Shown one piece after another: positions 163-24,336 of a DNA stretch of 24,336 bases. The translations under genes and the position numbers were made by a program. The notes below the pieces were generated by a model. That model was not told the origin of the DNA, ran no database searches, and worked only from the letters and a program-made list of their open reading frames with translations. The DNA is taken from IMG/VR virus record IMGVR_UViG_3300031867_000025, positions 70,150-94,485 of that record; one strand, given 5' to 3'. The stretch's first letter is position 1. Each line of letters begins with the position of its first letter. Origin of the DNA: a virus.

Positions 163-1503
163 ATGGCTTTAGCACATCAAAGTATATCGACTATTAGTTC
201 TCCAGAATTTATTAATCTTTCTCCCCTTGACATAAATCCTTTAATGTCATCCTGTGAGATTAAGGTTTTTTATCTTGGGGAGAACCGTAATGGAAGTTAT
301 ATTTCTAAAGATGTTGCTGCGGAAATGGCTAAAACATTACGTGGAGCGCCGATAGTTGGATATTATAAAGAAGAAAAAGAAGATTTTACAGATCATGGTA
401 ATCAAATGATTTTTGATGATACTGGAATTCATTTTAATTGTTTGACTAAACCTTATGGTTTTGTGTCTCCTGACGCAAAGGTTTGGTTTAAAGATTTTGA
501 TGATATTGATGAATTTGGTAATGCTGTCACAAGAACATATTTAATGACAACAGGATATTTATGGACAGGACAGTTTTATGAAGTTCAATCAGTTTTTAAA
601 GATAATGGAAAGTCTCATTCTATGGAATTGGATGAAAAAACTTTAGATGGACATTGGGCAAAAAATGAAAAAAAAGATTTAGAATTTTTTATTATAAATG
701 ACGCAATATTTTCTAAACTATGCATTTTAGGTGATGATGTAGAACCTTGTTTTGAGGGATCAGGAATAACCTCGCCGCAAGTTAGTGCATCATTTACTTT
801 AGACAACAATTTCAAACACACTCTGTTTGAAATGATGCAACAATTAACAGAGGCTTTAAAGGGAGGTAATGAAGTGGCTAATGTAAATGAAAATATTAAA
901 GATTCTACAGTAGTTACGACTGATTTTTCAGAATAGGACAAAAAGGATAAAGAAAAAGTTTTTGAAAATGAATTAAAATAGGATTCTTCAAAGGATAATG
1001 CTTCTACTTCTTTTGCTAATAAAGAAGATGAGAAGAAAGAAGACGAAAAAGAGAATAAAGAAGAAGGCAGTAGTGGTACTGAGAATGATGATAAAAAAGA
1101 AAATGATGAAGATAAGAAGAAATATAGTTTGTTAGAAGAACAGTATAATGAATTAAAAGATAAATACGCTCTTCTTGAACAAGAATGCAATGAACTGAAA
1201 GAATTTAAACAAAAAGTTGAAAATGATCAAAAGGATGAACTGATCGCACAATTTTCAATGCTTTCAGATGAAGACAAGAAAGATGTTATTGAAAATAAGG
1301 CTTCTTATTCTCTTGATGAAATTAAATCTAAATTGGCTGTTATATGTTTTGAAAAGAAGGTCAATTTTAATTTAAATGATACAGTCGAAAATGAAGAAGA
1401 TAAGAATGAAAAAGTTGTGACTACTTTTAATATGAATATACAGAGTGACCTCAGTGTACCAGATTGGGTAAAAGAGGTTGAAAACACAATGAATAATATT
1501 TAA
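163..1503 (+). CDS. scaffolding protein (446 aa): N-terminal globular domain, possibly a protease-scaffold fusion, plus acidic coiled-coil C-terminal region; 2 in-frame TAG read as sense
   Basis: RBS AAGGAGGaataatATG. Track ORFs 163..936 and 1129..1503 are in the same frame, separated only by TAG codons (934-936, 979-981). The C-terminal half is a K/E/D-rich heptad-like sequence (…EEQYNELKDKYALLEQECNELKEFKQKVEND…) typical of phage scaffolds. It lies immediately upstream of the capsid genes and ends in TAA. Confidence 0.6.
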
Positions 1504-1521: not shown

Positions 1522-2169
1522 ATGAAACGTAAGGGATATGCACAAGTAGAACCTAATCATCTTTCTGCACAATATACCGGTCAAATTTATGCACAATTAC
1601 CTGCATTAAAGGCTGACGGCAAGCCAATTGAACAGCTTGAAAATGGCCAGTTTTTAAAGTATAATTATGCGGCAGGTAGAGCAAGTGTTGCTGGTAGTGG
1701 AGAATGGATGCTTGTTTATAATGAAGAAAAATTATATGATGAAAGACGTCAGAATCATAAGGACTTTGTTATGAAGGCTGAAGATATGACGGACGGAAAG
1801 ATTTATCCTAGATTATTAAAGACTAATGTAGGAGATATCTATACTACAAATGCTTTTAAAAATAGTGGTTCAGATGCTGCTACTAAACCAACTGTAGAAG
1901 GCCCGGATCAATCAATTGAAATGGCGGATCTTTCTATTGGTGATTATCTAGTAATTGGAAATGATGGATGGTTAACAAAAGCTTCTGGTGAAGGTATGCC
2001 GGCAGATGCTGTTGTTTTCCAGGTTGTACCTCATTTTACTCAGCTTAATGATGATGGTAGCGTGGACCCTTCTTATGAAGCGAAACCCGTTGGTAGTGAA
2101 ACTGTGAATGTATATAACTATACTCTTGCAGATATGCAGGATGCTGTAAAAATACAACGTGTGAAATAA
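1522..2169 (+). CDS. head protein, possibly decoration/auxiliary capsid protein (215 aa), no TAG
   Basis: Uninterrupted ORF with RBS TAGGAGGattgtgaagatATG, TAA stop, positioned between scaffold and major capsid genes. Function is inferred from position only. Confidence 0.6.
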   Translation: MKRKGYAQVEPNHLSAQYTGQIYAQLPALKADGKPIEQLENGQFLKYNYAAGRASVAGSGEWMLVYNEEKLYDERRQNHKDFVMKAEDMTDGKIYPRLLKTNVGDIYTTNAFKNSGSDAATKPTVEGPDQSIEMADLSIGDYLVIGNDGWLTKASGEGMPADAVVFQVVPHFTQLNDDGSVDPSYEAKPVGSETVNVYNYTLADMQDAVKIQRVK

Positions 2170-2191
2170 TTAATGATAGGAGGATAACGTA

Positions 2192-3256
2192 ATGGCTTTA
2201 GATAGAACACAGTTAATTGCATTAGCTAAGGCTACTGCTAAGGCTTCCTTAAATCCTTCTGTCGCTTTTTCTTTTGGTGACAAGAAGCTGACTTATGAAG
2301 CTCTTAATGAAACATTTAGAAAAGAAATGGACGAATTGGCTGGAACATATGCCCAATATCGTGAAAATAAAAATTTAATCTTTAATTTAATTGAAGTAGG
2401 TCTTGATGAAGTTCTTCCTGTGAAGGTTATGCAGAACTATGGACAGTTTGCAGATGTTAAGACTTATGCACAAGGCGATAAGCCTGTATTTAAAGTAAGA
2501 GTTAGCGAAGCTTCCAGAAAGCGTGCTAAATCATTCGTAACCAGAGTTGGTCTTGCCGGTAGATATGAAGTGTTTAAACTTGATGGTTACACTTTAGAAG
2601 TGCCGACAGCTGCTTATGGCGGAGCTGCTCAAATTGGATTTGAAGAGTTCCTTGATGGTCACATTACTATGAGTGATGTATATGATCTTGTTCTTGAAGG
2701 ACTGGATGAAGCAGTGTATCGTGAAATTGCTAAGAGTTTAGTAGCGATGGCGGAAGACGCTAGAATTGGTTCTTACAACAAAGCGAGTGTAGCTGGCTTT
2801 GATGAAGCCGCTTTTGATCGTCTTATAGCTACAGCAGATGCTTATGGAAAGAGTACTATTTATTGTACATATGAATTTGCTGCTCAGATCGCACCTACCG
2901 CCGCGGGAGCAATAAATTGGAATGCTATGTCTAATAATATGAAAGAAGAACGTTGGAATAACGGTTACTTTACTCGTTATAAAACTCATAATATGATTGT
3001 TCTTCCTCAGAGTTTTGAAGATGTCACAAATGCTAAGAAAGTTATTGATCCTAGATATGCATGGATCATTCCTACTGGCGCTGAAAAGCCCGTGAAGGTT
3101 GCTTTCGAAGGTCAGACCGCAGTGCGTGAGCATGAAAATGCTGACTGGTCAAGAGAAATCGAAACCTATAAGAAAATGGGTGTGGCTGTTTATAATGTAA
3201 ATCCTGGCATTTGTGTTTATAAGAACACTTCTTTAAAGACTAATAATGTTCTATAA
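2192..3256 (+). CDS. major capsid protein, HK97-fold family (354 aa), no TAG
   Basis: Uninterrupted ORF with RBS TAGGAGGataacgtaATG. The sequence (…ASRKRAKSFVTRVGLAGRYEVFKLDGYTLEVPTAAYGG…YNVNPGICVYKNTS…) and its size and position match siphovirus major capsid proteins. It is followed by a strong terminator. Confidence 0.8.
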   Translation: MALDRTQLIALAKATAKASLNPSVAFSFGDKKLTYEALNETFRKEMDELAGTYAQYRENKNLIFNLIEVGLDEVLPVKVMQNYGQFADVKTYAQGDKPVFKVRVSEASRKRAKSFVTRVGLAGRYEVFKLDGYTLEVPTAAYGGAAQIGFEEFLDGHITMSDVYDLVLEGLDEAVYREIAKSLVAMAEDARIGSYNKASVAGFDEAAFDRLIATADAYGKSTIYCTYEFAAQIAPTAAGAINWNAMSNNMKEERWNNGYFTRYKTHNMIVLPQSFEDVTNAKKVIDPRYAWIIPTGAEKPVKVAFEGQTAVREHENADWSREIETYKKMGVAVYNVNPGICVYKNTSLKTNNVL

Positions 3257-3275
3257 GGTTAATAATTAACATATT

Positions 3276-3312
3276 ATACCCTCCTTCTTATGAAGAAGGA
3301 GGGTATTATTTA
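3276..3312 (+). terminator. Rho-independent terminator after capsid gene
   Basis: 14-bp perfect stem ATACCCTCCTTCTT / AAGAAGGAGGGTAT (3276-3289 / 3293-3306) with a short loop, followed by the T-rich TATTATTT. Confidence 0.7.
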
Positions 3313-3338
3313 ATAAAGAGATAAAAGGAGTTTAAAAA

Positions 3339-3902
3339 ATGGATAAAAATACACCAATAAAAGTTTTAAATAGAGATAACGGCGCGGTAGTTTATTCTAT
3401 TCCAGAGATGAATGGGTTAACAAGAATTTTTCAGGCGGGAGAAACTAAAGAGGTAACTTATGAAGAGTTACAAAAATTATCTTATATTCCCGGTGGAAGT
3501 GAATTATTAAGAGATAGCTTAGTAATTTTAGATAATTCAACAACAGTTGAAAATTTAATTGGTCACGTAGAGCCTGAGTATTATTATACAAAAGATGATA
3601 TTATTAATTTAATGAAAACAGGTTCTTTAGATGCTTTTTTAGATTGTTTAGATTTTGCTCCAGAGGGAGTAAAGGATTTAATCAAAACTTTAGCAGTAGA
3701 CTTACCGTTAAATGATGTATCTAAACGAGAAGCAATCCTTGATAAATTAGGCTTTAATGTTGATAATGCTATTAGAATTAAAAATGAATCTACTGAACCT
3801 CAAGAGGAAGAACATGTTGCTAAGCGAAGAGTTCAAAAGGAAGAGACTAAGCCTGCGGAAACAATTACCCGTCGCCGCACCGTTGTGAAAAAAGAGAGTT
3901 AA
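3339..3902 (+). CDS. hypothetical structural protein (187 aa), no TAG, charged C-terminal tail
   Basis: Uninterrupted ORF with RBS AAAAGGAGtttaaaaaATG and TAA stop. Confidence 0.65.
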   Translation: MDKNTPIKVLNRDNGAVVYSIPEMNGLTRIFQAGETKEVTYEELQKLSYIPGGSELLRDSLVILDNSTTVENLIGHVEPEYYYTKDDIINLMKTGSLDAFLDCLDFAPEGVKDLIKTLAVDLPLNDVSKREAILDKLGFNVDNAIRIKNESTEPQEEEHVAKRRVQKEETKPAETITRRRTVVKKES

Positions 3903-3921
3903 ATAAAAGGGGAGGTGTATT

Positions 3922-4455
3922 ATGGAAGATATAAAATATACGCCCTTTTCTGAAGTATATGATAGTTTTCTTTCAAAGATAACTGATGATATGTATATGG
4001 AATTAACCGAGGAAGATACGTTTAAAATTTTACAATAGTTGTTATTTTCTGCTATTGGTAAATTTGAATTTCCTCGACAAAGTTTAGATTATTAGTTTAA
4101 ATAGCCGTAGTAGGGAGAAACGTAGGGAGAGTGGATTTTTATCAATCTTTTAACTCAAGAAGAAATAAATATCTTAGCTACCTATATGATTGTAGAATGG
4201 TTAGGACAGCAATTAGCTTCAATAGAGAATGTAAGAATGAAGTATAGTGGGGCTGATTTTAAGTTTACGAGTCAAGCGAATCACATTCAGAAAGTTTTAC
4301 AATTAAAAAAGGATTATGAGCGAGAAGCTTTTCATTTACAGCGTTTATATAAAAGACGTTTGAAAAATAGTTAGGGTATTTATAAATCTACTTTTGGTAC
4401 TATTATGGAAAATCAGCCGTAGGGAGGTACTGGAACATGGAAGAATTGGTTTTAA
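3922..4455 (+). CDS. putative head-tail adaptor/connector protein (177 aa) with 8 in-frame TAG codons
   Basis: RBS AAAGGGGAGGtgtattATG. A single frame runs from ATG 3922 to TAA 4453-4455, broken only by TAG at 4036, 4093, 4102, 4108, 4111, 4123, 4372 and 4420. Track ORF 4186..4374 is its C-terminal fragment. The connector call rests on position after the capsid genes and an approximate resemblance to gp6/gp15-like adaptors, and is low confidence. Confidence 0.5.
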
Positions 4456-4763
4456 GTACTGGAATGGCTGTAGATATAGAAGCTATACATTTAAGTATAA
4501 AAAAAATAATTAATCAAGTTTATAAATTATTACCTATGAGAGAAGAAGGTAAGGACTGGCAAAAGTTACTTGAGACGTTAATAGAGTAGATATCGGGAAT
4601 GAAAAGATTGATAAAAGATCAGGACCGTCTTTTCTTTCTGTTGTTATGTAAATTGGAAGGATTATTCAGTTTAGATTCAGAAGATAAAATGAGTTTATTT
4701 CGTAGAGTTATTTTTGAAAGTTTGAATTTACTGAATAATTTAGATAAAAATGTCTGCGATTGA
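4437..4763 (+). CDS. hypothetical neck protein (108 aa; head-closure-like size), 1 in-frame TAG, TGA stop
   Basis: ATG 4437 is preceded by GGGAGGtactggaac. The frame is open to TGA 4761-4763 and overlaps the next gene start (ATG 4750). Confidence 0.5.
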
Positions 4764-6057
4764 TACTTTAAAGAATCGAGTTAGAATTAATAGTGATAAT
4801 TTTTATACTCATTCCACTGCGGGATCTGCTTTAGCTACAGTAGCGAAAAGATTACAGGTGCGCGGGGGACCTGATCAATGGGTACGAATGCGGGAAGATA
4901 AATTACGTAGTTTAAAGAAAGCATTACTTTATTCTTACCAAAGTGCCGTTGTACAAAGGTATGACGTTAAAAAGAATAGTAAGGCTAATAATATTATTCA
5001 ATTAATTACTAGGTTACAAGATGTAATTGAATTAAATGATAATGAAAAAGAGTTTTTAACTGATCTTGAGCGGGAGCATATGATAGAATTAGAACGTGGA
5101 AGTTCTGAATATATAGATAGATTGAAATAGATTGTTGATGAATTAACGAATTCTTCTCCGTTATTTAGATGCTTAATCAATCATGATAAATTAAAGGTTG
5201 ATTATGAAGATAAAATTATTTCTATTCCTTTTTAGTAGATACCTTTAGGATCTACAGAAATAGCACAAACAGAATTTCATAATGGAACTGTTTTTAAATG
5301 GGTACATGGGAATAAGGAAGAGTGGACTCCAGACACATACTGGATTGTATATATGCAATATTCAGAGGAAACGGCTTATTTTAGAGCTGAGATAAGAAAA
5401 GCCGATGAATAGATTGAGATTGTAACGATAGATGCGGAAGGTAACGAATCTACTGTAACTTATCGCGGATGGATGACTGGACCGAATGAGACGACCGCTC
5501 TGTGGAATACTAAAAAAGATGTTACTTGGAATGATATGAATTATACTAAGTTGCTTTATATTACGAAAGATTAGGATACGTTGGCCTTTTTTCAACGTTT
5601 TGATAGAATTATCATTAATGGAAAACCTTGGGAAGTACAAGCATATAATGAAAATTATAGCACAAATAAAAGCGGCGAGGTAGATTCAGGGATTATTCGA
5701 GTAGCACTGAAAGAAACTTATACTGGGTCTACACAATTTATAAAGTAGAGAATGGATGAAGCGGACGCCGCCAAAGAAAAACAGACCTAGTATGATGAAC
5801 AACATACCGATCCCCGCATAGATGGACCAATTAAAGTTAAACCCTATTCTATTCTTACTTTTGTTGCTAAGAATTTTGAAGAGCAAGGCAGTTGGAGCAT
5901 ATCTAATACGAAAATTGCAAAAATTAAAACTATATCTGAAGATACTAAAACTGCTACGGTATAGATTTTAACAGGGTTTTCTAATAAAGAGGGATTTTAT
6001 ATAAATTATGGAAACAATGATGATACAAAAATTCACGTTATAATAGAATCATTTTAA
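4750..6057 (+). CDS. neck/tail structural protein (435 aa) with 8 in-frame TAG; C-terminal region looks beta-rich (possibly Ig-like)
   Basis: Track ORF 4750..5130 continues in the same frame through TAG-only interruptions to TAA 6055-6057. The readthrough segments encode coherent protein sequence (…TVTYRGWMTGPNETTALWNTKKDVTWNDMNYTKLLYITKD…). Confidence 0.5.
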
Positions 6058-6071
6058 GGAGGGAAAAGATT

Positions 6072-6725
6072 ATGAGAAAGGATTTAATTTTAAATAAGCC
6101 GATATATTCTTCTTTTTTCTCTTGTGGACCCGATATTCAAATGATTTTAAAAACTTTATTTGTATCAAGTCGTCCTTATAGTGATATTTTAAAACGTTTA
6201 TTAATTATAAATAATAAAGATTGTTTAAAATCAATGGATGATGATATTGAATAGGTTTATAAGAAAACAGTTAATAGTTTTTCGTTAGGAGATTTAATTG
6301 ATAAAGGATATGTTAGATTAAATTCAAAGATTTCTCGTGGCACTCATGAATAGATTAAATCTTATATCTTAATTTCTTTAGATAATTTTTCTCCAGATGG
6401 AACAAGTACAGAATATAGAGATTCTATTATAAATTTTGATATAGTATGTTATAATGATGCTTGGGTTTTAAATGACTATAAAATACGTCCATTAATGATT
6501 GCGGGTTATATAGATGGTATTTTAAATAGTTTAACTCAGAATAATAAATACTTAGCAACAGGGTCCTTAAAATCACAAATTAAATTGTCTGGCATTGGTG
6601 AATATCAGTTTTTAGGTTGTAATTATCATGTATTAAATGAAGATTTAGCCATGTATACGTTATCGTATTATGGTAAACATTTTTCAGAGGATGTTCAAAA
6701 GATTGGAACGGTGACTAATGATTGA
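6072..6725 (+). CDS. hypothetical tail/neck protein (217 aa), 2 in-frame TAG, TGA stop
   Basis: RBS TTAAGGAGGgaaaagattATG. Track ORFs 6072..6254 and 6495..6725 share a frame and are joined through TAG codons only. The TGA stop overlaps the start of the next gene. Confidence 0.5.
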
Positions 6726-7476
6726 TTACCTTTTATTATTGTCTAAAAATGATATTCCATTCATTGAAGCGAAAGTTGTTGTACATCAACCTACTATAAG
6801 AGAAATTGCTTTTATTGGTTAGGAAAAATTTTTTTTAGGATGTTAGGTTATTAATTTTTCAAAAAAGAATTTGATGATATAGGACAAAACGCAAATAGAA
6901 CAATTAAGTGATTTTGAAATATTAATGGCAATAATAAACAATAAAGAAGGCGGAGCTAATATCAAGAAAAATAAAAAATGCCTTTAGTTGATTTTATTAT
7001 TACTATTTCCTGATTTTACTATTAATTTTTTGCCTACGAGTATTATGCTTACAAAAGATAAGTAGAGGCATTTAATAGACAGAGACAACTTTTAGAGTTT
7101 TAAAAATATCGTTAATGAGATGTTTTGTTTATCTAACGTTTTAAAAGACGGGGCTAGTAAGTATAATCCTGGTGGTCCGCAAGCGCAAGCATTAGTTTAG
7201 AAATTTAAAAAGCGTCAAAAGAAACTTGCATAGTTAAAAAATAGAAGTCAAGAACAAAAAATTGAAATATTATCTCGCTATATATCTATATTAAGTGTTG
7301 GAGAACAGAAGGATATGAATATATTATTAAACTATACTGTTTTTCAATTATTTGATGAATTTAATCGTTTTAAATTACGAGAAGATTTTAATATGTATGT
7401 AAAATGTAAATTAGCGGGAGCTAAAGATTTAGAAGATGTTAAAAACTGGATGGATAATTTGCGTTCAGAAGATTAA
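6718..7476 (+). CDS. hypothetical tail protein (252 aa; tail terminator/completion candidate by position), 8 in-frame TAG
   Basis: ATG 6718 overlaps the upstream stop. The frame is open to TAA 7474-7476 with only TAG interruptions, and readthrough yields coherent sequence (…NMYVKCKLAGAKDLEDVKNWMDNLRSED). Confidence 0.45.
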
Positions 7477-7502
7477 AATTAAAAATAAGGAGGATAATTC
7501 TT

Positions 7503-8588
7503 ATGAAATTTGGTGTAAGATAGTGTGCAAACATTGTTTTTCGTGCAAAACAGAAGACTGTGATTGGAACATCTACTTTTAATGTAGGTCAACCAGTTCT
7601 TTATATTGATACAGCCACTACTTCCTCTATGGAACAGGCGAGTACTTCAGTATACGCACAAGGCGGACGCGGTAATGCTCGTTTACTTGCATGGGAAGGT
7701 GATAAGACATTAACATTTACTGTTACTGATGCTCTTATTTCTCCTGTTTCGTTAAGTATGTTATCAGGGGCAGGATTAATTAAAACAACTGGAGATTGGG
7801 TTCATGTGCATGCAACAACTGCTGCAACGATGACTCTTACTGGTACTGGTAACGGAGCTGTTGGACAAATTGATTTAACAGATGCATTAGCTGAATTTGG
7901 TGCAATTAATAGTTCTAAGACTGGTGATACTCAATCAGCTGGCAATGGCGGTATTTATGTGGATGCTGGTACAGATGCGCCACTGTTTATAATTGAAACA
8001 GAAGACGATGGTTCTATTACTGGTAGTATCATTACTTCTAATGCCACTGGTGGTATTACATATGAAGTTGAAATGGATACTGTTGATAATACAAAAGTAA
8101 AACGTGCTTATTTAAATATTCCACAGCCTAAAGAAAATAATACTACTGCTTTAACTGAATCAGATGGTAGTATTAATGTATTAGTAGATTATTATGTAGT
8201 TAAGAAATCTGATCAAGTATCTGAAATTCAGCTTACTCCTCAAGATTTTGCAGGATATTATTATGTAGAAGCTGATACTTTATTTAGATCTCAAGCAACT
8301 GGTATTGATATGCCTGCTAACTTAACATTCCCGAATGTTAAGATTCAGTCTGGATTTACTATTAGTATGGCTGGTACTGGTGATCCTAGTACATTTGACT
8401 TTACTATGGATGCGTTCCCAGGATATACTTATTTTGATAAGACTAAACAGGTGCTTTGCGTAATTCAGGTTGTTGAAGATAGTTTAGCTGCAACTTCTGA
8501 AGGACATAGCGTGATGCTTAAGAATACTGGTATTGAACATCCAGATATTTTTGATGATAGCGATTTAGTAGATCCAACAACAATCTAA
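7503..8588 (+). CDS. major tail (tube) protein (361 aa), single TAG at codon 7
   Basis: Strong RBS TAAGGAGGataattcttATG. Track ORF 7560..8588 starts at an internal GTG. The real ATG at 7503 is in the same frame and is separated from it by one TAG (7521-7523). The protein is Thr/Gly/Ser-rich and beta-rich, and the gene is followed by a strong terminator. Together with its position before the chaperone and tape-measure genes this supports a major tail protein. Confidence 0.65.
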
Positions 8589-8595
8589 TTTAAAT

Positions 8596-8630
8596 GGGAG
8601 GATAATTAATAATTATCCTCCCATTTTTTT
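8596..8630 (+). terminator. Rho-independent terminator after major tail gene
   Basis: Perfect 12-bp stem GGGAGGATAATT / AATTATCCTCCC with loop AAT, followed by ATTTTTTT. Confidence 0.8.
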
Positions 8631-9936
8631 GATATGGCGGGAAGAGGTGATTTTATTGCAAAACAATATACAAAAACCAGTTGTTACAATTAATAAAGGA
8701 GGCATTTATGAAGCGATCAAATCTACTGCTAAAAATAATATTAAGCCTGTTTTAGATCAAGAAATGTTAGATTATTATACAAGCATGACTTTAGAAATGA
8801 AAAAAAGAACATTGATAGAATATCAAAAGAAAATGGAATATCAATTAGGGGTCTTAAATGGGACTGAGTAGATCAATGAATATTTTAAAGCTTATGAATT
8901 AATATTAGATTTTCGTGAATTTATTTTAGGAAAATTAGGAAAAATTGATTATACTTTTACTTGGAAGACTACTTATGATGGTCAAGCTTTTATTAGAACT
9001 ATGGTGATTGGTAGAAAAGAAATGGCTGATTTAATAACAGATGAAAATGGAAAATTATTTGGTCTTTCAGGGAAAAAAAATGTTCAAAGAGGACCTACTG
9101 TAGGATTGCGTTTTAATCGTAAGTGGTTAAAACAGATTAATAATTTAGTTAAAAATTTAAATGCTCAAGATATAAATATTACAATAAATCAAGGGGAATC
9201 TTCTTTTTCTATTATTAATGAAAAAACAGGAGCAAGACAAATTTTTGTAAATTCAGGAATGTTTAAAGCAGAGATTAATAATCAAGAGAATAAAAGAGAA
9301 AATAACCAAATTTGGTATATTTTTACTATAGAATTAGAAACTGATAAAACTAAGGATGATGATAAAGAAGTATTTTCTTTTAAAACAAAAACAGTAGAAG
9401 CAAAAAAAGATGCCTTCTCTTCTACTGTTTTTTCAGCAATTGGAAAATATTTTGCAGATGAAATGAGAACAAAGAGAGAGTTAATAGCAAATCGTCAACT
9501 TAGTATAGATCCTAAATATCCTAACGAGGGAGTTTTAACAGAGATGTATATTCGAGCTAAAGTAGAATTAAATCAAGGTCATAATCATTTTAGTTCAGAT
9601 AGAGTGGTGTCTGGAGAAACATTATTTAATCTTTATCAAAAAGCAAAAGGAAATGCGTTGTTTTCTTCTGGCGGGGACTTTTTAATGGAGCAAATAAAAT
9701 CTTTTTTAGGAACTAATCCTACTTTAACTTAGTATTCTACAATACGCAAAACATTATAGTCTTTGGTTGAAGATTTAAAATAGAGCGATTTTCAGAAAAT
9801 GAAAAAAAGTCTTTCTAATGAATTATTACAAACTCCAAAATCTACTAATAAAAAAATTGATGAAAATGTTGAAAACACTTTATATCGGACATTATCATCA
9901 GCTTTATAGACTTTTTTTTCTGACTTGACAACCTAA
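8629..9936 (+). CDS. hypothetical protein (up to 435 aa) between the major tail and chaperone genes; TAG-poor (4 TAG, 3 of them in the last 68 codons)
   Basis: Track ORFs 8629..8871 (TTG start) and 9001..9732 are in the same frame. With TAG as sense the frame continues past 9732 to TAA 9934-9936. The true start may be the in-frame TTG at 8656, preceded by AGGTGAttttaTTG. Function is unknown. Confidence 0.45.
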
Positions 9937-9953
9937 AAATTTTATGTTATAAT
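9925..9953 (+). promoter_or_regulatory. consensus sigma70/sigmaA-type promoter with extended -10, driving the chaperone and tape-measure genes
   Basis: TTGACA (9925-9930), exactly 17 nt of spacer, TGtTATAAT (-10 hexamer 9948-9953). The chaperone ATG follows about 37 nt downstream with RBS AAAGGAAAGGAAG. Confidence 0.65.
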
Positions 9954-9989
9954 TAAAAGAGAAAAGAAAAAAGGAAAGGAAGTATCATA

Positions 9990-10508
9990 ATGAAATATTC
10001 AGATTTAAATTTATCTATTAATAACGATACAGTTACTACACAAACTCCTTTCGGAGATATTGAAGTGCGGAAGTATCTTCCAGTTGAAGATAAAATTGAT
10101 CTTATTGAAATTGCTCTTCAAAAATCAGAAGAAAACGGTATTTATAATGAAATGAAGTTAGCAATGTATTTTAATCTATATATAATTTATATGTATACTG
10201 ATCTTGAATTTACAGATGAAGAAAAGGCGGATGAATATAAATTATATAACGAGTTAGAAAGTAATAATATTATTATCTCTGTGTTAGGTGCGCTTGATGA
10301 ATATGAGGAATTATTCCATTATTTGAACATTATGAAAGATATTAAAATGAAATATAAGACAAGTGCGGCCGCCATGGTGCAAACATTCATCCAGGATATG
10401 CCACGTAATGCCGCTGCAATGTCTGAGATAGTAGATAATTTCGATAAAGAAAAATATAAAGAAGTTGTTGAGTTTGCTAAATACGCTAATGGCGGAAGAC
10501 CTATTTAA
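9990..10508 (+). CDS. tail assembly chaperone (gpG-like; 172 aa), no TAG
   Basis: Uninterrupted acidic ORF immediately upstream of the tape-measure gene. Size, charge and position match phage tail assembly chaperones. TAA stop. Confidence 0.55.
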   Translation: MKYSDLNLSINNDTVTTQTPFGDIEVRKYLPVEDKIDLIEIALQKSEENGIYNEMKLAMYFNLYIIYMYTDLEFTDEEKADEYKLYNELESNNIIISVLGALDEYEELFHYLNIMKDIKMKYKTSAAAMVQTFIQDMPRNAAAMSEIVDNFDKEKYKEVVEFAKYANGGRPI

Positions 10509-10637
10509 TTTGCTTGGACAAAAAACTTCAAATGTTTATTAGACCTTTTGATATTAAGTAGTATTAATATTAAAAGGTCTTTTTTTATTTTTAAAAATAA
10601 ATAAAAAGGAGGAATAGGTATGCCTAATGGCGGAAGA
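10486..10637 (+). repeat. exact 14-nt direct repeat CTAATGGCGGAAGA, at 10486-10499 and 10624-10637, spaced 138 nt apart
   Basis: Read directly from the sequence. Both copies are in frame 0 and encode N-G-G-R. One lies 3 codons before the chaperone stop and the other 2 codons after the tape-measure start. Confidence 0.9.
10541..10592 (+). terminator. strong intrinsic terminator/attenuator between the chaperone and tape-measure genes
   Basis: 17-bp stem AGACCTTTTGATATTAA / TTAATATTAAAAGGTCT containing one G·U pair, a 6-nt loop GTAGTA, then TTTTTTATTTTT. Confidence 0.7.
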
Positions 10638-13600
10638 ATAGATTTTCAAGTTGGTTTTAAAACTGACAAAAGCGGTTTAAATTAGTTAAATAAAATTATT
10701 CAAGACCTTCAGGGAAAATTAACTAATACAGCTAGTAAGAATGGAATGTCTGATAGTTTACGAAAAGCAACTGACGCCGCAAAAGAATTATAGAAAATTA
10801 TAAACGGATCTTGGAATGATAAGCTATAGCAATTAAATGTAAATAAATTTAATACGAGCATAAATAAAGCTTTTGGATCCGCTTCAAATCTTAGAGACAT
10901 TTTAGCTCAATCAGGAAAAGATGGAACTGAAGCTTTTTTAAAAATTAGCTCATAGGTATTAAGCACTAATACTCAATTAAAACAAAGCAATAAGCTTTTA
11001 GATGATATGGCTGATACCTTTGGTAAAACAGTTAAGTATGGTATTGCATCTAGTGTTTTTAACAATATTAAGAATTCTCTTCAACAAGCTTTTTATTTTG
11101 CTAAAGACTTAGATTTATCTTTAACAAATATTAGAATTGTAACTGGTGACAGTGCAGATCAGATGGAACGGTTTTCTAAAACTGCAAACTAGGCTGCTAA
11201 AAATTTGGGCCGGTCTACGTTAGATTATACCAATGCCGCCTTAACTTTTTATCAACAGGGTTTAGGATAGTAGGATGTAAATGCTAGAACTCAAGCCACT
11301 ATGATGGCTCAGAATATTACTGGTGTTGGTACTTAGATGGCAGATTATTTAACTGCTGTTTGGAATGGTTATAAAGTTGGTGCAGAAGAAGCCGTTGAAT
11401 ATGTTGATAAGTTGGCTGCTGTTGCTGATAGTAGTGCGTCTGATATGTCATAGTTGGCTATTGCTATGTCAAAAGTGGCGTCCGCAGCTAATGTAATGGG
11501 CGTTGATTCTGACCAATTAAATGCTCAATTAGCTACTGTTATTGCTACGACTAGATAGGCTCCTGAATCAATTGGTACTGCTTTTAAAACTATTTATGCT
11601 AGAATAAATGATATTAAGGCTGGAACTGATTAGGCTGAAATTAGTTTAGGTAATTATTCTGGTAAAATGGCATCATTAGGATTTAATGTATTTGATACTA
11701 ACGGGAAACTAAAAGATACCGGTGATGTTATTGAAGAAGTTGGTGAACGCTGGGGTACGTTATCTAAAGAACAACAAGTTTATTTGGCTCAAGTAATGGG
11801 TGGTACTCGTCAATACAGTAGATTAATTTCTTTGTTTGACAATTGGAATATGTATTCTGAAATGTTAAACGTATCATTAAATTCATAGGGTACTTTACTT
11901 GAAAAAAATGAACGGTATTTAGATTCTGTAAAAGCCCATTTAGAATCCTTAAACACAGAGGCTGAACGTACATATATGATTTTATCTGATACAGGTGCGA
12001 TTAATGCGGCTGCAGATGCGTTAAATGTTGTTTTAACCTCATTTAATAATTTTCTTAGTGGTTTAGGTGGTGGTATAACCAGTATTACTTATATGGGTTC
12101 TCTTATATCAGGAGTTTTTAGTAAACAAATAGCTAAAGGAATTCAAGATGCTAAAGTACAATTAGATCAATTCTTTTCTACATAGCGAGCGCAGAAGGCT
12201 CAAAAGAAATGGGCGGAAGCTACTGTTTTAGTAACAAATGCTATGAATGGTGGAAATATAAATAGTAAGTCCGCGGGATATAAAGCACAAATTGAATAGG
12301 CTTTAAAATTGCAAAAAGTCGCTTCTGCATTAACAGAAGAAGAACAAAAAAAGGCGGGTTAGTTACAAAGATCTGTTGGTTTACATACAGAATTATTAGT
12401 TAAAGCACAAGAAGAACAAAAACAAGCGGAACAGACAAAAGCTCAATACAATGATCTTTATAAAAAATATAATGAAAATAAATATACTCTTGAATATAGT
12501 ATAGAACTAGAAGAAAAGAAAAATAAAAAAATTTAGCAATCTTTAAGTATTTTTGGACAGATTAATTAGATTCAAACACGAGGGCAACAAGAATAGAAAA
12601 ATAAAAATGCTGCATTTGATTTAATTAATAAAAAAGCTTCTATCTTAAAATAGACTTGGACAAGTATTGGGGTAGAAGAATCTCAAGCTGAAGAATATAT
12701 TAAAAAAATAAAAGATAATATTAAAAATGGAGATGATTATCTTAAAGATATTGAAGATGTTCAAACTGATTTTGTAGATGATTTAAAAAGAGGAAATACA
12801 AATCTTGAAAAAAGAAAAACTCTTTTAGCTGCAGTTTTAACAGATACTTCTAAATAGCAACAATAGAATTAGGAAGGTTTAAAAACAGATAGAGAACGCT
12901 TACGAATACTACGAGAAATGGCGGAGCAACGTCAAAAAACTCAAAAAATCGTACAATCTATTTCAGCAATAGGTCAAGTATTTTCTGCTGTTGCTGGAGC
13001 AGCAAAAGTTTTTGGAGATGAATCTTCTACAGGAGCAGAGAAAGCAAATGCGGCTTTTTCCACTGTACAAGGAACTATTTCGGCTATAGGGACTTATATA
13101 GGAGGACCATTTGGCACAGTAGTAGCTTCTGCGGTAAATTCAGTATTATCCTTAATAAAAGAAGTGACTCCTTTAGGTAAGGTAATGGAGGATTATTTTT
13201 CTTCTACTGAGGAAAAACTTCAAAAAATAAAAGATTTACATAAAGAAATAGATAAGGCTTCTCAAGATCATAATAAATCTAAACAAGCTTTAAAAGATAT
13301 TCAAGAAGAGTATGATAAATTAACAAGTAAATCTGGATCTTTAACTAATGCTGAGCAAGAGCGTTTAAATGAATTAGCTGAAATATTTAATAATTATAGT
13401 GATGGAGTTATTTTAGGCTATAATCAACAAGGCGATGCAATTATTAATAAAAATAGAAAAATAGATAATACTTTGGAAAAAATGGATCAATAGTATGAAG
13501 CTATTTTACGTAATAATCAAGCTAGAATGGATATTTCAGCCTAGGATAAAGCTTATCAAAATGCTTCAGACAGAGTTAAAGAATTAGAAACAAATGAAGT

Positions 13601-19600: not shown

Positions 19601-20459
19601 ATATATTAAAAAGCATGAAGAATTACAAGCTGCGATTGAGGCTGTTACTAAAGCTTATAAGATTCAACAAGAAGAACAAAGGCGGGCGGCAGAAGCTGCT
19701 ACCCAAGTAGCTGGATCTGCGGCGGTTTCTATAGGAGACACTTCTTTATTTGATGGAACTTATAATCAGGTACATCCTGATGTAAGCTATAGCAGCCACA
19801 GCAGTAGTCGTAGACGAAATACTGTCGTGATAGATCCTGGTGCTTATGGAGGCGGGGGCGGTTTTGGAATAGGCTCTACGGTAAGGTTTTTATCAGGTCG
19901 ATATACAGCAAATTCTTCTGGAGGAGGTACATCTGGAGATGCTTCTTTAGGAAGCTATGTAACAATAACTCTTACTAATCCTGGAGCTCCTCGTCCTTAT
20001 CATATCTCAGGATCAGATTATTGGGGAAATTATTCTGATTTAGGATGGGTTTCTGAAGATCAATTAGGTTATAGATCAGGAGGTTACACTGGAGAATGGG
20101 GGTCTTCTGATGGAAGATGGGCATTACTTCATCAAAAAGAACTTGTATTAAATGCTCAAGATACTTAGAATATGTTAGAAGCGGTAAGGACTGTCCGTGA
20201 CTTAACTGCTGAAATGCAAGCTAATTATAGACAACGTTTATTACAATATCAACTTATGCAAGAATAGATGAGTGCATTACAATCAAAAATGCTTTTTGAT
20301 ATGAATAGTTTCTTATTTACTGATAGAGAACAAACTCCAGTTCAACAAAATGTTTATATTACGGCAGATTTCCCAGCAGCTCAATATCATAGAGAAATTG
20401 AATTAGCATTTGAAAATCTTACAAATCGTGCTTCTCAGTATTTATTTACTAGTAGATAA
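10620..20459 (+). CDS. tail tape measure protein, giant (3279 codons), with roughly 100 in-frame TAG codons read as sense
   Basis: RBS AAAAAGGAGGaataggtATG. All 14 track ORFs from 11007 to 20459 are in frame 0, and the segments checked in between contain only TAG interruptions, never TAA or TGA. The N-terminal region carries the conserved tape-measure core (…GKTVKYGIASSVFNNIKNSLQQAFYFAKDLDLSLTNIRIVTGDSADQMERFSKTAN…LDYTNAALTFYQQGLG…MADYLTAVWNGY…). The remainder is a long alpha-helical K/E/Q-rich region with a Gly-rich C-terminal domain. The gene ends at TAA 20457-20459. Confidence 0.85.
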
Positions 20460-23500: not shown

Positions 23501-24336
23501 AAAGCTGAATTTGGAAGAGCAGATACTGGAAGAATTATTATTGACCCTTCTCAACAAAAAGAAGGAAAACCTCAAGCTTTAATATATGGAGGTGTTTATA
23601 GAGAAAAGGGTATTGACGATGATTAGGGGTCTGGTATGATCATTAATTTAACCAAACCTTCTATTGAATTTGGCTCTAAAAAATTTACTGTAGATGAACA
23701 AGCATTTACAGTTGGTGAAGATAAAATTATTTACGACATGGATAAAAACAAATTATCTTTAAAATTAGATGAATTTTCTTTAGGAGGTAAAGACTTATAG
23801 GAAATAGTTGATGAAGCTGATAATTTTTTATTAGATGCGAAAGGATTATCTAGTACCTATTGGACAATAGTTGGTACTTTAGAAGATAATCAAGATGATC
23901 CATTTGGAAAAAAAGGAGCTTGTTTGTTATCTCCTGAATCTGGAAAAAGCGCATATATACAAGCAAAAAAAGATAATAATAATCCTTTTAAAGAATTAGG
24001 TAGACGTTATCAGCTATCTGTATGGTTAAAAACATCAACATCAAATAATTCTAATAATTCAATAGATATTTATTTTAATGGAGTGGCACATACTGTAACT
24101 CCAACAAATATTTGGAAACAATATAGTTTTGAACAATAGGTAACTACTTTAAATACTAGTTATCCCAATGATCTTGTAACAATTGGTGGACAATCTTCTT
24201 TTTCATCTTCTGATGGATATAATTTATATATATATAATCCTTATGTATCTTTTGTAGAAACTCAATTAGAAATTTTTAATAGATTAACAAATGATGGAGC
24301 TGCTCAAGGTATACAATTAAAGAATGGGTAGCTATA
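20507..24336 (+). CDS. very large tail-tip / receptor-binding protein (distal-tail/tail-fibre-like; at least 1276 codons, 3' partial), 24 in-frame TAG
   Basis: ATG 20507 with RBS AAGGAGGtttaatatATG. Track ORFs 20852.., 22214.. and 23924.. are all in frame 2. Codon-by-codon checks of the joins show TAG only. The C-terminal visible part (…YQLSVWLKTSTSNNSNNSIDIYFNGVAHTVTPTNIWKQYSFEQ…) resembles a beta-sandwich carbohydrate-binding module. The frame continues beyond the window end. Confidence 0.6.

What the first reader, a model, noticed from the sequence alone, without database searches (positions are those of the whole stretch)
1522..10508. Sharp gene-by-gene partition of TAG usage: the most highly expressed structural genes avoid TAG completely
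TAG counts read from the sequence: head protein 1522-2169, 0 in 215 codons; major capsid, 0 in 354; gene 3339-3902, 0 in 187; chaperone, 0 in 172; major tail, 1 in 361 (codon 7); scaffold, 2 in 446. Against this: adaptor 3922-4455, 8 in 177; gene 6718-7476, 8 in 252; gene 4750-6057, 8 in 435; tape measure, about 1 per 30-35 codons; tail tip, 24 in 1276. The TAG-free genes are exactly the ones followed by strong terminators (capsid, major tail) or needed in high copy number. This suggests either selection against dependence on a limiting suppressor tRNA in high-output genes, or deliberate suppressor-dependent gating of low-copy neck, tape-measure and fibre proteins.
Basis: partly seen in the sequence, partly recalled or inferred. 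Interest (0 to 1): 0.7.

Follow-up and report, generated by a model that had tools for sequence, protein, structure and literature searches.

The report
Amber-as-glutamate phage spares capsid genes
In this gut or rumen phage the stop codon TAG is read as an amino acid, apparently glutamate and not the glutamine assumed for all such phages, and the genes for the most abundant virion proteins (capsid and tail tube) are kept almost free of it, most likely because TAG is a costly codon.

Summary
TAG share of its codon family differs strongly among genes (p=1e-5). The split holds in 18 of 18 related recoded genomes: TAG is 0.5-2.4% of Glu codons in capsid g3, g2 and tail tube g10, against 20-34% in g5, g7, g8 and g9. 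Two items do not hold clade-wide: g12 ('chaperone') and g1 ('scaffold') carry ordinary amounts of TAG in relatives.

The larger result is unexpected. In this clade TAG aligns with glutamate, not glutamine. At conserved columns of terminase and portal, TAG falls on E 147 times and on Q never. Sister lineages in the same family (L070, L073, phAss-1) use TAG as Gln yet show the same capsid exemption.

Capsid Glu sites flip freely between GAA and GAG but almost never reach TAG, so the depletion is TAG-specific purifying selection. It is not slow evolution, GAG avoidance or gene import. TAG sites in low-copy genes are scattered, unfixed and below mutational expectation, which argues against designed gating.

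No CUA tRNA was found in the window's closest relatives. A Glu-type tRNA(CUA) occurs on related recoded contigs.

The parts
163..1503 (+). g1, YonD_N-family head protein with an acidic coiled-coil C-terminus (scaffold-like). It has 2 TAG among 54 Glu-family codons in the window but is not TAG-poor clade-wide.
   Evidence: Pfam PF27290 on record for the source contig. Counts. In the clade, 13 of 24 conserved Glu columns carry TAG.
1522..2169 (+). g2, an unannotated head gene immediately upstream of the capsid gene. It is TAG-free here (13 GAA, 0 GAG, 0 TAG) and 1.6% TAG clade-wide. Its function is not established; the position suggests a decoration or scaffold protein.
   Evidence: Only PHROGs families of unknown function match. 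The phAss-1 ortholog is TAG-free.
2192..3256 (+). g3, the major capsid protein (HK97 fold, Pfam YonB). It has 0 TAG here and 3 TAG among 593 Glu-family codons in 22 clade sequences.
   Evidence: AF2 model with pLDDT 80.8. Foldseek against PDB gave 319 hits at E<=1e-3, the top 50 all capsid or encapsulin shells. Babkin et al. annotate the ortholog as MCP. Counts.
3276..3306 (+). Terminator-like hairpin after the capsid gene (14-bp stem).
3339..3902 (+). g4, a head-module gene of unknown function. It is TAG-free here despite 9 GAG, and 3.6% TAG clade-wide.
3922..4455 (+). g5, a putative neck or adaptor protein. It is TAG-rich (8 TAG of 23 Glu-family codons).
   Evidence: In the clade, 10 of 12 conserved Glu columns carry TAG.
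4437..4763 (+). g6, a small late gene with 1 TAG.
4750..6057 (+). g7, a late structural gene that is TAG-rich (8 of 43 Glu-family codons).
6072..6725 (+). g8, a YomW-family protein with 2 TAG.
6718..7476 (+). g9, a YomV-family protein and the most TAG-rich gene (8 of 22 Glu-family codons; 34% clade-wide).
7503..8588 (+). g10, the tail tube protein (Pfam YomU_Tube). Its single TAG, at codon 7, sits in a column that is E in all 34 standard-code homologs. Clade-wide TAG share is 2.4%.
8592..8626 (+). Terminator-like hairpin after the tube gene (16-bp stem followed by a T-run).
8656..9936 (+). g11, a late gene with an uncertain start (TTG 8656 or ATG 8764) and 5 TAG.
9925..9953 (+). Perfect sigma-70 consensus promoter (TTGACA, 17-nt spacer, TATAAT, with an extended TG) just upstream of g12.
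It is TAG-free here, but relatives carry 0-6 TAG (14% of Glu codons).
10541..10580 (+). Terminator-like hairpin after g12 (17-bp stem followed by a T-run).
10620..20459 (+). g13, the tape measure protein of 3279 aa (PhageMin_Tail), with 85 TAG (25% of Glu-family codons).
20507..24334 (+). g14, a large tail-tip protein that runs off the window, with 24 TAG (25% of Glu-family codons).

Best explanation
The window is the late (virion) operon of an SPbeta-like siphovirus, roughly 100-140 kb, from a rumen or gut community. During late infection TAG is translated as glutamate, so it is a third Glu codon alongside GAA and GAG. It must be read by a suppressor tRNA with anticodon CUA. That tRNA competes with release factor 1 and is probably scarcer than the ordinary tRNA-Glu, which makes each TAG a slow and slightly leaky codon (inferred). 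In most late genes TAG arises by mutation, mainly GAG to TAG plus replacements from neighbouring codons, and drifts at many unfixed sites up to 20-35% of Glu codons. In the genes whose products are needed in hundreds of copies per virion (major capsid protein g3, tail tube g10, and g2 and g4 beside the capsid gene), the summed cost of premature termination, slow decoding and possibly assembly-poisoning fragments is large enough for purifying selection to remove TAG while leaving GAA/GAG turnover free. Divergently transcribed early genes are also TAG-free, because they are translated before the suppressor acts and TAG there would still mean stop. What is shown: the recoding, the Glu meaning, the partition and its conservation, the TAG-specificity of the depletion, and the identities of the capsid and tube proteins. 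What is inferred: the nature of the cost (RF1 competition or limiting suppressor) and the actual expression levels.
For: Recoding: coding density only makes sense with TAG read as sense.

Glu meaning:
- The profile of residues opposite TAG in standard-code homologs is E .41, D .11, Q .09. True Glu codons give E .48, D .13, Q .04, and true Gln codons give Q .40, E .12. Glu is favoured over Gln by 67 nats on 194 unique columns, even though the alignments were built with TAG set to Q.
- In independent genes TerL and portal, TAG at conserved columns falls on E 147 times, D 6 times and Q 0 times, including the TerL FDR-E-YRS motif.

Partition:
- Window chi-square p=1.1e-5 and Fisher p=2.5e-5.
- HIGH genes are below LOW genes in 18/18 genomes.
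- Clade-wide TAG share is g3 .005, g2 .016, g10 .024, g4 .036, against g5 .20, g7 .26, g8 .23 and g9 .34.
- TerL (22%) and portal (14%) are ordinary, so the split is not head versus tail.

TAG-specific selection:
- In g3, 21 of 24 conserved Glu columns are GAA/GAG-polymorphic, but only 2 of 496 codons are TAG. In g7, 21 of 27 columns carry TAG.
- g3 has 166 GAG against 3 TAG, and g9 has 33 GAG against 103 TAG.

High-expression signature: g2, g3 and g10 share a distinct codon bias (GAG 2/54, TTG 1/31, AGG 0/14, CGA 0, AAG and CAG elevated), and terminators follow g3 and g10.

Protein identities: g3 has the HK97 fold and g10 is YomU_Tube.

Independence from the encoded amino acid: the TAG-to-Gln lineages phAss-1 and L073 also keep TAG out of the capsid and tube genes.

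Early genes upstream are TAG-free while using GAA and GAG normally.

A tRNA(CUA) with a tRNA-Glu-type body exists on related recoded contigs.
Against: No CUA-anticodon tRNA was found in the window. None was found in the 56 kb I could reach of the closest large relative either, although that stretch includes an array of 12 tRNAs. The decoder for this lineage is therefore unidentified, and 'limiting suppressor' is an assumption. The Glu-type tRNA(CUA) is on contigs only loosely tied to the window's clade: a 55%-identical array ORF and a 3-gene block shared with L026. Its acceptor stem is irregular, and its charging cannot be read from sequence. Expression levels and copy numbers are inferred from protein identity, not measured, and g2 and g4 have no established function. 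g1, which looks like a scaffold and should be abundant, is not TAG-poor clade-wide, so copy number does not predict TAG share perfectly. With 85 TAGs in the tape measure, read-through must be very efficient: 0.97^85 is 7.5% and 0.99^85 is 43% (my arithmetic). The per-codon cost is therefore small, and the selection argument relies on large population sizes. The genomes compared are related, so the 18/18 sign test overstates independence.
Confidence: 0.7

Rival explanations
1. Deliberate gating or stoichiometry tuning. TAG codons are positively selected in low-copy neck, tape-measure and fibre genes so that their output depends on, and is throttled by, the suppressor. The capsid and tube genes are simply the ones left untouched.
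For: TAG is confined to the late operon and absent from upstream early genes, as in published models of recoding as a timing device. Every low-copy late gene of reasonable length carries at least one TAG in every genome. Yield would fall with TAG number in the right direction: tape measure 85, tail tip 24 or more, capsid 0.
Against: TAG/GAG in low-copy genes (1.6 overall, 2.3 in the tape measure) is below the T/G ratio of about 5.5 at fourfold sites, so there is no excess to explain. None of 190 TAG columns is fixed at 80% or more in the clade and 87 are below 10%, and TAG positions are spread along the genes instead of sitting near the start. All these genes sit in one co-oriented operon with the TAG-free genes, so timing cannot differ. 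Small low-copy genes sometimes have no TAG at all (g6 and g8 in some relatives).
Confidence: 0.13
2. No selection on TAG at all. The capsid and tube genes evolve slowly, or had few GAG codons to mutate, and have simply not yet accumulated TAG since the code change.
For: g3 and g10 are among the most conserved proteins (78% and 72-73% mean identity). In the window itself g2, g3 and g10 have almost no GAG (2 of 54), which is the one-step precursor of TAG.
Against: Protein conservation does not predict TAG share (Spearman -0.35, p=0.28). g5 is as conserved as g10 (70-73%) yet has 20% TAG, while g2 and g4 are poorly conserved (61-63%) yet have 1.6-3.6%. Synonymous sites in g3 are saturated (21 of 24 Glu columns polymorphic), and GAG is abundant in g3 across the clade (166 codons, 28%), yet only 3 TAG occur.
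Confidence: 0.04
3. The head genes were recently imported by recombination from standard-code relatives, which resets their TAG content.
For: Phage genomes are mosaic, standard-code relatives with 57-69% identical capsid proteins co-occur in the same habitats, and g1-g4 form one contiguous block.
Against: Identity to the window in g3 correlates with identity in g2, g5, g7, g9 and g10 across loci (Spearman 0.40-0.73). All recoded-clade capsid genes are closer to each other (73-87%) than to any standard-code relative (69% or less). The tube gene, 4 kb away and separated by TAG-rich genes, shows the same depletion, as do the independent Gln-type lineages.
Confidence: 0.03
4. TAG is ordinary code 15 (Gln), and the Glu signal is an artefact of Glu-rich surface positions or of misalignment.
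For: All published TAG-recoded phages are treated as TAG-to-Gln. The related phAss-1 is classified in the 'code 15 clade'. The TAG profile shows a small Q excess (.09 against .04 for true Glu).
Against: In the window clade, TAG falls at invariant E columns 147 times and at conserved Q columns 0 times, while L070 and L073, analysed in the same alignments, give Q 12 and E 0. The method therefore distinguishes the two cases. Conserved Gln columns of the clade carry almost no TAG. The alignments were made with TAG set to Q, which biases against Glu. The small Q excess is expected from frequent CAG-to-TAG transitions producing tolerated Q-to-E replacements.
Confidence: 0.04

Closest known systems
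TAG-to-Gln (genetic code 15) recoded gut phages: crAss-like, Lak, and the Garnet, Amethyst, Jade and Sapphire clades (Borges et al. 2021/22, bioRxiv 10.1101/2021.08.26.457843; Peters et al. 2022, PMC9523058; Yutin et al. 2021, PMC7886860)
   Same: In-frame TAG read as sense in a low-GC phage. Recoded codons are concentrated in late structural genes, and early genes are written in the standard code. TAA is the main true stop. The published authors already proposed that selection enriches or depletes recoded stops in particular gene families.
   Different: Here the amino acid is Glu, not Gln. Published work stresses enrichment in lysis and structural genes as a timing device. The exemption of the capsid and tube genes inside the late operon is not described in the papers I could read. 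In crAss-like phages the capsid gene is one of the genes used to detect recoding, so it does carry recoded stops there.
Phassvirus / phAss-1 group (Babkin et al. 2023, PMC10607447)
   Same: The same phage family: 51% identical capsid protein, homologous head module, tape measure longer than 3000 aa, about 136 kb. In their table, TAG is present in TerL, portal and tape measure but absent from the capsid gene and its three neighbours.
   Different: phAss-1 reads TAG as Gln. This rests on their TerL alignment and tRNA typing, on my noisy Q-leaning profile, and on its SupA tRNA resembling its own tRNA-Gln(CUG). Its synteny differs, with the tail genes upstream of the head genes. The authors did not comment on the capsid exemption.
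Nuclear codes 30 and 31 (peritrich ciliates, Blastocrithidia), in which TAA and TAG encode Glu (my own knowledge; related ciliate papers appear)
   Same: UAG is decoded as glutamate by a cognate suppressor tRNA derived from tRNA-Glu.
   Different: Those are eukaryotic nuclear codes in which UAA is reassigned together with UAG and the change is genome-wide. Here TAA remains the main stop (11 of the 13 complete genes end in TAA and 2 in TGA), and TAG is sense only in late phage genes.
Classical translational selection on codon usage in highly expressed genes
   Same: A rare or slowly decoded synonymous codon is purged from the most heavily translated genes and drifts elsewhere. The same genes show bias at other codon families too.
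   Different: The disfavoured codon is a reassigned stop. Its cost therefore includes chain termination by RF1, not just slow decoding, and the depletion (about 50-fold between g3 and g9) is far sharper than for ordinary synonymous pairs in the same genes.
SPbeta-like temperate siphoviruses of Bacillota (Pfam families YonB, YonD_N, YomU_Tube, YomV, YomW)
   Same: Gene order is TerL, portal, YonD, (YonC), YonB, then YomW, YomV, YomU, then a giant tape measure. Enterococcus phages of about 140 kb share the same synteny.
   Different: SPbeta and the Enterococcus phages use the standard code. Lysogeny of the window phage was not tested.

Membership tests
Genetic code 15 phage (TAG to Gln) | In-frame TAG codons inside conserved protein-coding genes | tested here: met
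   There are 144 in-frame TAGs in 14 genes, and coding density is restored only if TAG is read as sense.
Genetic code 15 phage (TAG to Gln) | TAG positions correspond to Gln in homologs that use the standard code | tested here: not met
   The residue profile opposite TAG matches Glu, with Glu favoured over Gln by 67 nats. At conserved TerL and portal columns the counts are E 147 and Q 0. Control lineages L070 and L073 give Q 12 and E 0 in the same alignments.
Genetic code 15 phage (TAG to Gln) | Phage-encoded tRNA(CUA) of tRNA-Gln type | tested here: inconclusive
   There is no CUA tRNA in the window or in about 1 Mb of clade loci, using a scanner validated on the phAss-1 suppressors. Related recoded contigs carry a tRNA(CUA) whose D-arm and variable loop are of Glu type, not Gln type.
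Stop-codon-recoded phage with a late-gene alternative code (Borges-type) | Recoded stops concentrated in late structural or lysis genes, with early genes compatible with the standard code | tested here: met
   All late-operon genes except the exempt ones carry TAG. Divergent upstream genes in relatives have about 0 TAG with normal GAA and GAG usage.
Stop-codon-recoded phage with a late-gene alternative code (Borges-type) | Low GC content, with the reassigned codon rare as a true stop | tested here: met
   GC is 25-38%, mean about 31%. Of the 13 complete genes, 11 end in TAA and 2 in TGA.
Stop-codon-recoded phage with a late-gene alternative code (Borges-type) | Close relatives that use the standard code | tested here: met
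   Loci with 57-69% identical capsid proteins have 0 in-frame TAG across 2000-3200 aligned codons.
Codes 30/31 (TAA and TAG both to Glu) | TAA is reassigned together with TAG | tested here: not met
   TAA terminates 11 of the 13 complete genes, and treating TAA as sense does not extend plus-strand ORFs.
HK97-fold major capsid protein (for g3) | HK97-like fold | tested here: met
   The AF2 model has pLDDT 80.8 and pTM 0.73. Foldseek against PDB gave 319 hits at E<=1e-3, and the top 50 are all phage capsid or encapsulin shell proteins at probability 1.00. TM-scores are modest (0.4-0.58).
HK97-fold major capsid protein (for g3) | Position after the portal and scaffold genes in a head-morphogenesis block | tested here: met
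   The order is TerL, portal, g1 (acidic coiled-coil), g2, g3. The same order occurs in Enterococcus phage VRE9_4, which has an annotated portal.
Siphovirus tail tube protein (for g10) | Membership of a tail-tube family and a position upstream of the chaperone and tape measure genes | tested here: met
   The precomputed Pfam hit is PF27173 YomU_Tube. The gene lies 2 kb upstream of the tape measure. There is no sequence match in the PDB, and the fold was not modelled.
Translational selection in highly expressed genes | The same genes show a distinct bias at other synonymous families | tested here: met
   In g2+g3+g10 compared with the rest: GAG 2/54 vs 17%, TTG 1/31 vs 14%, AGG 0/14 vs 8%, CGA 0/14 vs 17%, AAG 54% vs 19%.
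Translational selection in highly expressed genes | Measured high expression of the biased genes | not testable with these tools
   This needs transcriptomics, ribosome profiling or virion proteomics.

The most novel reading that the evidence does not exclude
A clade of SPbeta-like rumen and gut phages has reassigned the amber codon to glutamate. This would be a genetic-code variant not described for any virus or bacterium, and sister lineages of the same family reassigned the same codon to glutamine. It is decoded by a tRNA-Glu-derived CUA suppressor. If so, current pipelines that translate every TAG-recoded phage with table 15 mistranslate about 2% of residues in these proteomes. The family would offer a natural paired system for asking how the amino-acid identity of a captured stop codon is chosen, for example through hosts that make Gln-tRNA via a non-discriminating GluRS plus GatCAB.
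Probability: 0.85. Interest if true: 0.85.

Novelty: new variant of a known kind. Interest (0 to 1): 0.74.

Why it matters
There are three reasons.

1. The meaning of a recoded stop codon in phages is routinely assumed, not tested. This clade indicates that amber can be captured for glutamate as well as glutamine within one phage family. That affects annotation (prodigal-gv, geNomad and Pharokka-gv all apply table 15), protein family building and structure prediction for these genomes. It also opens the question of what decides the amino acid.

2. The capsid and tube exemption appears in lineages with different TAG meanings. This is direct evolutionary evidence that reading a recoded stop carries a fitness cost even in a phage that depends on it. 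It constrains models in which recoding is a free regulatory switch: the pattern looks like a cost being minimised, not a gate being built.

3. In practice, TAG-free capsid genes explain why capsid proteins are often detectable under the standard code in recoded phages. They are also convenient, code-independent markers for finding such phages.

Tried and rejected
1. I first normalised TAG to Gln codons on the code-15 assumption. That gave weak heterogeneity (p=0.02) and the misleading idea that TAG replaces CAG. I abandoned it when conserved Gln columns proved to be TAG-free and TAG columns proved to be Glu.

2. I considered that TAG avoidance is just GAG avoidance. This is suggested by the window (GAG 2/54 in the HIGH genes) but rejected clade-wide, where g3 is 28% GAG and 0.5% TAG.

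3. Pfam-A, NCBIfam and PHROGs scans of g1-g4, g10 and g12 gave nothing, or only families of unknown function. PDB sequence searches of g3 and g10 gave nothing.

4. A single-sequence AF2 model of g3 was useless (pLDDT 36), so I repeated it with a 59-sequence alignment.

5. The suppressor tRNA hunt:
- ARAGORN and Rfam on the window and about 250 loci.
- Anchors that returned only phAss-like contigs (NrdD, topoisomerase) or nothing (g14 C-terminus).
- A promoter-leader DNA motif that proved specific to a single contig.
- Relaxed ARAGORN with introns, which gave only spurious calls.
- A first version of my CUA scanner that failed its positive control and was fixed.
- Four successive upstream walks that reached a tRNA array on the 142 kb relative without finding a CUA tRNA.
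- The single metagenome scan, which added only about 0.5 kb.

6. The Rfam tRNA hit in L105 has no anticodon loop and was rejected as a decoder.

7. Host assignment from MAG bins is unreliable. The same phage family appears in bins labelled Clostridia, Erysipelotrichaceae, Prevotella, Treponema and even Methanobrevibacter.

Full report
WHAT THE WINDOW IS. Under the standard code the window breaks into short ORFs. With TAA and TGA as the only stops, the plus strand is almost fully coding: 24,960 nt lie in ORFs of at least 100 codons, against 10,713 nt under the standard code. Fourteen co-oriented genes result, most preceded by AGGAGG ribosome-binding sites. The window is part of a 28.6 kb ENA contig (L083), which adds a terminase-like and a portal-like gene upstream. 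Precomputed Pfam hits on that contig give SPbeta names: g1 YonD_N, g3 YonB, g8 YomW, g9 YomV, g10 YomU_Tube and g13 PhageMin_Tail. Annotated relatives are phage phAss-1 (51% identical g3; NCBI 'Caudoviricetes code 15 clade'), Enterococcus phages of about 140 kb with the same gene order, and more distant SPbeta-like Staphylococcus phages. With a 59-sequence alignment, g3 models well (pLDDT 80.8). The model matches HK97-fold capsid and encapsulin shells exclusively: 319 PDB hits at E<=1e-3. Babkin et al. annotate the phAss-1 ortholog as the major capsid protein. The window is therefore the head-to-tail late operon of a large SPbeta-like siphovirus with a 3279-aa tape measure.

THE OBSERVATION. 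Heterogeneity among genes is significant per codon (p=4e-6) and, after the correction described below, against the synonymous family GAA+GAG (p=1.1e-5). The terminator-like hairpins after the capsid and tube genes exist, and a third follows g12.

WHAT TAG MEANS. I began by assuming code 15. That assumption failed. Conserved Gln columns across the recoded relatives contain almost no TAG, even in TAG-rich genes. Columns that hold TAG are occupied mainly by Glu in standard-code homologs. The mean residue profile opposite TAG is E .41, D .11, Q .09, K .08. This closely matches the profile opposite true Glu codons in the same sequences (E .48, D .13, Q .04, K .08) and does not match that of Gln codons (Q .40, E .12). 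On 194 unique columns Glu is favoured over Gln by 67 nats, and among columns at least 80% conserved the count is 31 E to 2 Q. The alignments were built with TAG translated as Q, so any bias ran against this result. TerL and portal were not part of that analysis, so they provide an independent test. At conserved columns, TAG in window-clade sequences falls on E 147 times, D 6 times, A once and Q never. One of those sites is the E of a conserved TerL FDR-E-YRS motif. Two other lineages in the same alignments (L070, L073) give Q 12 and E 0. The family therefore contains two different amber reassignments, and the window belongs to the TAG-to-Glu one. phAss-1 itself leans towards Q, in line with its authors. 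I found no report of amber-to-Glu in a phage or bacterium in the searchable literature. Current tools apply table 15 to all TAG-recoded phages. From my own knowledge, UAG as Glu is known from eukaryotic nuclear codes 30 and 31, where UAA is reassigned as well. Here TAA remains the main stop.

THE PARTITION, RE-EXAMINED. Treating TAG as a Glu codon, its share of GAA+GAG+TAG in the window is:
- 0 in g2, g3, g4 and g12
- 4% in g1 and 7% in g10
- 19-36% in g5, g7, g8 and g9
- 25% in both the tape measure and the tail tip
- 22% in TerL and 14% in portal

The last two values show that the split is not head genes versus tail genes.

Across 80 related IMG/VR loci, about 25 belong to the Glu-type recoded clade. 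Pooled over unique sequences, the TAG share is:
- g3 0.5% (3 of 593), g2 1.6%, g10 2.4%, g4 3.6%, g1 7%
- g5 20%, g6 14.5%, g7 26%, g8 23%, g9 34%, g12 14%

In every one of 18 genomes that have both gene classes, g2+g3+g10 lies below g5-g9, although these genomes are related and not independent. The exemption of g3, g2, g10 and g4 is therefore conserved. The low counts in g12 and g1 in this window are not.

The same pattern appears where TAG means Gln. L073 has 0 TAG in g2, g3, g4 and g10, against 11 in g9 and 19 in portal. In phAss-1 and its two sister genomes, the published table marks TerL, portal, tape measure and the g5 ortholog as containing TAG, but not the four genes g1-g4. My own counts for phAss-1 are 0 TAG among the capsid gene's 15 Gln codons, 0 in the tube ortholog, 6 of 13 in g9 and 16 of 40 in the tape measure.

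WHY THE EXEMPTION EXISTS.
- Slow evolution does not explain it. Mean protein identity does not predict TAG share (rho -0.35, p=0.28). g5 is as conserved as g10 but TAG-rich, and g2 and g4 are poorly conserved but TAG-poor.
- Lack of time or of precursors does not explain it. In g3, 21 of 24 conserved Glu columns are polymorphic for GAA and GAG within the clade, and GAG makes up 28% of its Glu codons, yet TAG is 2 of 496 at those columns. In g7, 21 of 27 such columns carry TAG.
- Import of head genes from standard-code phages is not supported, because identities are congruent across genes and the tube gene behaves the same way.
- g2, g3 and g10 share a marked codon bias at unrelated codon families: GAG, TTG, AGG and CGA are nearly absent, while AAG and CAG are elevated. 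This is the usual signature of strong translational selection. g3 and g10 are also followed by strong hairpins.
- The capsid and tube proteins are the components needed in hundreds of copies per virion. This rests on established phage biology, not on measurement here.

The simplest reading is that TAG is a costly codon, either slow to decode or occasionally terminated by RF1. Selection removes it where translation flux is highest. The cost itself is inferred.

IS THERE GATING? In the mutational chain GAA to GAG to TAG, the neutral TAG/GAG ratio should approach T/G at unconstrained sites, which is about 5.5 at fourfold-degenerate third positions. Observed TAG/GAG is 1.6 for all non-exempt genes and 2.3 for the tape measure, so TAG falls short of the neutral expectation. 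None of 190 TAG columns is fixed at 80% or more in the clade, 87 are below 10%, and the sites are spread along the genes. This is what drifting, mildly deleterious synonymous sites look like, and it is not what conserved checkpoints would look like. Gating by sheer number cannot be excluded, but the data do not call for it. Upstream of the late operon, the divergently transcribed genes of relatives use GAA and GAG normally and have essentially no TAG. That fits the published picture in which early genes are translated before the code switch.

THE DECODER. The window has no tRNA, and no locus within about 20 kb of the capsid gene in this family has one. By walking upstream on the 142 kb relative, I covered positions 7.0-62.7 kb. 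That stretch holds a lone tRNA-Lys(UUU) and then an array: Ile(UAU), a Gln-like tRNA with an 8-nt anticodon loop, Gly x2, Lys x2, Thr, Glu(CUC), Asn, Asp, Leu(UAG) and a Glu(UUC) that ARAGORN misses. A purpose-built scan for CUA anticodon arms with T-arm and acceptor pairing recovers all three phAss-1 suppressors but finds nothing in 1.0 Mb of clade loci.

Using the small ORF embedded in the array as a handle, I found three related ENA contigs (L247-L249) with arrays of 15-19 tRNAs that include a tRNA(CUA). One comes from the same study series as the window. These contigs are TAG-recoded, and they share a three-gene block with clade member L026. Their few alignable TAG sites face Glu at 5 of 9. 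The suppressor's body is of tRNA-Glu type: U8-C9, a D-stem CUCU/GGAG giving U11:A24 and U13:G22, a 4-nt variable loop with A46 and no residue 47, and best similarity to the clade's tRNA-Glu(CUC). From my own knowledge, those are the GluRS identity elements defined in E. coli. The link to the window's genome is indirect, the acceptor stem is irregular, and charging cannot be read from sequence.

COMPARISON WITH WHAT IS KNOWN. Recoding of TAG in late genes of low-GC gut phages is well established. So is the idea that selection shapes which gene families carry recoded stops. I did not find two things described: the exemption of the capsid and tube genes inside the late operon, and Glu as the encoded amino acid. 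The exemption is visible but uncommented in the phAss-1 table. It is hinted at by the observation that 407 of the 475 identifiable capsid proteins in 'table 15' phages are found even under the standard code. It is not universal, since crAss-like capsid genes do carry recoded stops.

VERDICT.

Noticed in passing
L070, L073 (IMG/VR relatives) and phAss-1 OQ749652 (L081-L085): Within one phage family (YonB-type capsid, 51-60% identical to the window's), some lineages read TAG as Gln and others as Glu. Standard-code relatives are interleaved with them, which implies at least two independent captures of the amber codon.
   Followed up: partly
L243 17536-17607 (142 kb relative, tRNA array): A tRNA-Gln-like gene with an expanded 8-nt anticodon loop (UUUUUGAC), which ARAGORN reports as a 4-base anticodon 'tttg'. 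Such loops are typical of frameshift suppressors. A weak counterpart is present in L245 (Rfam 29.9 bits) and absent from L246.
   Followed up: no
L105 267-339(-) and 447-555(-); L231 13456-13517; L244 about 330-400(-): Degenerate tRNA-like elements in the early region. They have good acceptor and T arms, but the anticodon arm is replaced by a long stem with a tetraloop, or one arm is missing. In L230 and L231 one of them occupies the position where L233 and L234 have an intact tRNA-Lys(UUU).
   Followed up: partly
L105 about 200-830(-): Three copies of a near-consensus promoter (TTGACAAA, 17-nt spacer, TATAAT). Two are followed by a conserved leader ATACAAGGTRAGGGAA that drives small structured RNAs, and a GC-rich structured stretch lies at about 60-230. 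The motif is specific to that contig.
   Followed up: partly
window 9925-10580: g12 has its own perfect sigma-70 consensus promoter with an extended -10 TG (9925-9953) and its own strong terminator (10541-10580). It looks like an independent transcription unit embedded in the late operon.
   Followed up: no
window 8690-8790: A strong AAAGGAGG ribosome-binding site and an ATG at 8709 open a short frame of about 26 codons with two in-frame TAGs. This frame is out of frame with g11, whose own start (TTG 8656 or ATG 8764) is uncertain. Possible explanations are a small leader ORF or a mis-called start.
   Followed up: no
window 10620-20459: The tape measure protein is 3279 aa with 85 TAG codons. 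At about 1.5 angstroms per residue it implies a tail near 0.5 micrometre. Full-length synthesis requires per-codon read-through well above 97%, so suppression must be very efficient late in infection.
   Followed up: no
window g2, g3, g10 (1522-3256, 7503-8588): The highly expressed genes prefer AAG (54% of Lys codons, against 19% elsewhere) and CAG (54% of Gln codons, against 15% elsewhere). They almost exclude GAG, TTG, AGG and CGA. This is codon-specific selection and not a simple GC3 shift.
   Followed up: partly
L175-L220 (GTDB genome contigs): Contigs of 130-175 kb from this phage family are binned into MAGs labelled Clostridia, Erysipelotrichaceae, Bacilli, Mollicutes, Prevotella, Treponema and even Methanobrevibacter. 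They are probably whole phage genomes mis-binned as bacterial contigs, so host inference from these labels is unsafe.
   Followed up: no
L245 2968-4725; L246 2404-4146 (early region next to the tRNA array): A 580-585 aa protein with Lactamase_B and Anti-Pycsar_Apyc1 Pfam hits, a candidate cyclic-nucleotide-degrading counter-defence enzyme. Under the standard code its reading frame in L243 is broken by TAG, so some genes outside the late operon also use TAG as sense.
   Followed up: no
phAss-1 L084 12442-12532(-): One of the phAss-1 amber suppressors (SupA) resembles the phage's tRNA-Gln(CUG) but carries a roughly 17-nt insertion forming a long extra arm in the variable region. The three phAss-1 suppressors are not similar to one another.
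   Followed up: partly
L243 11561-16562: Several early-region ORFs appear to end in TAG when all three stops are used, with the next ORF in a different frame. TAG may therefore still serve as a genuine stop in some early genes of the same genome.
   Followed up: no
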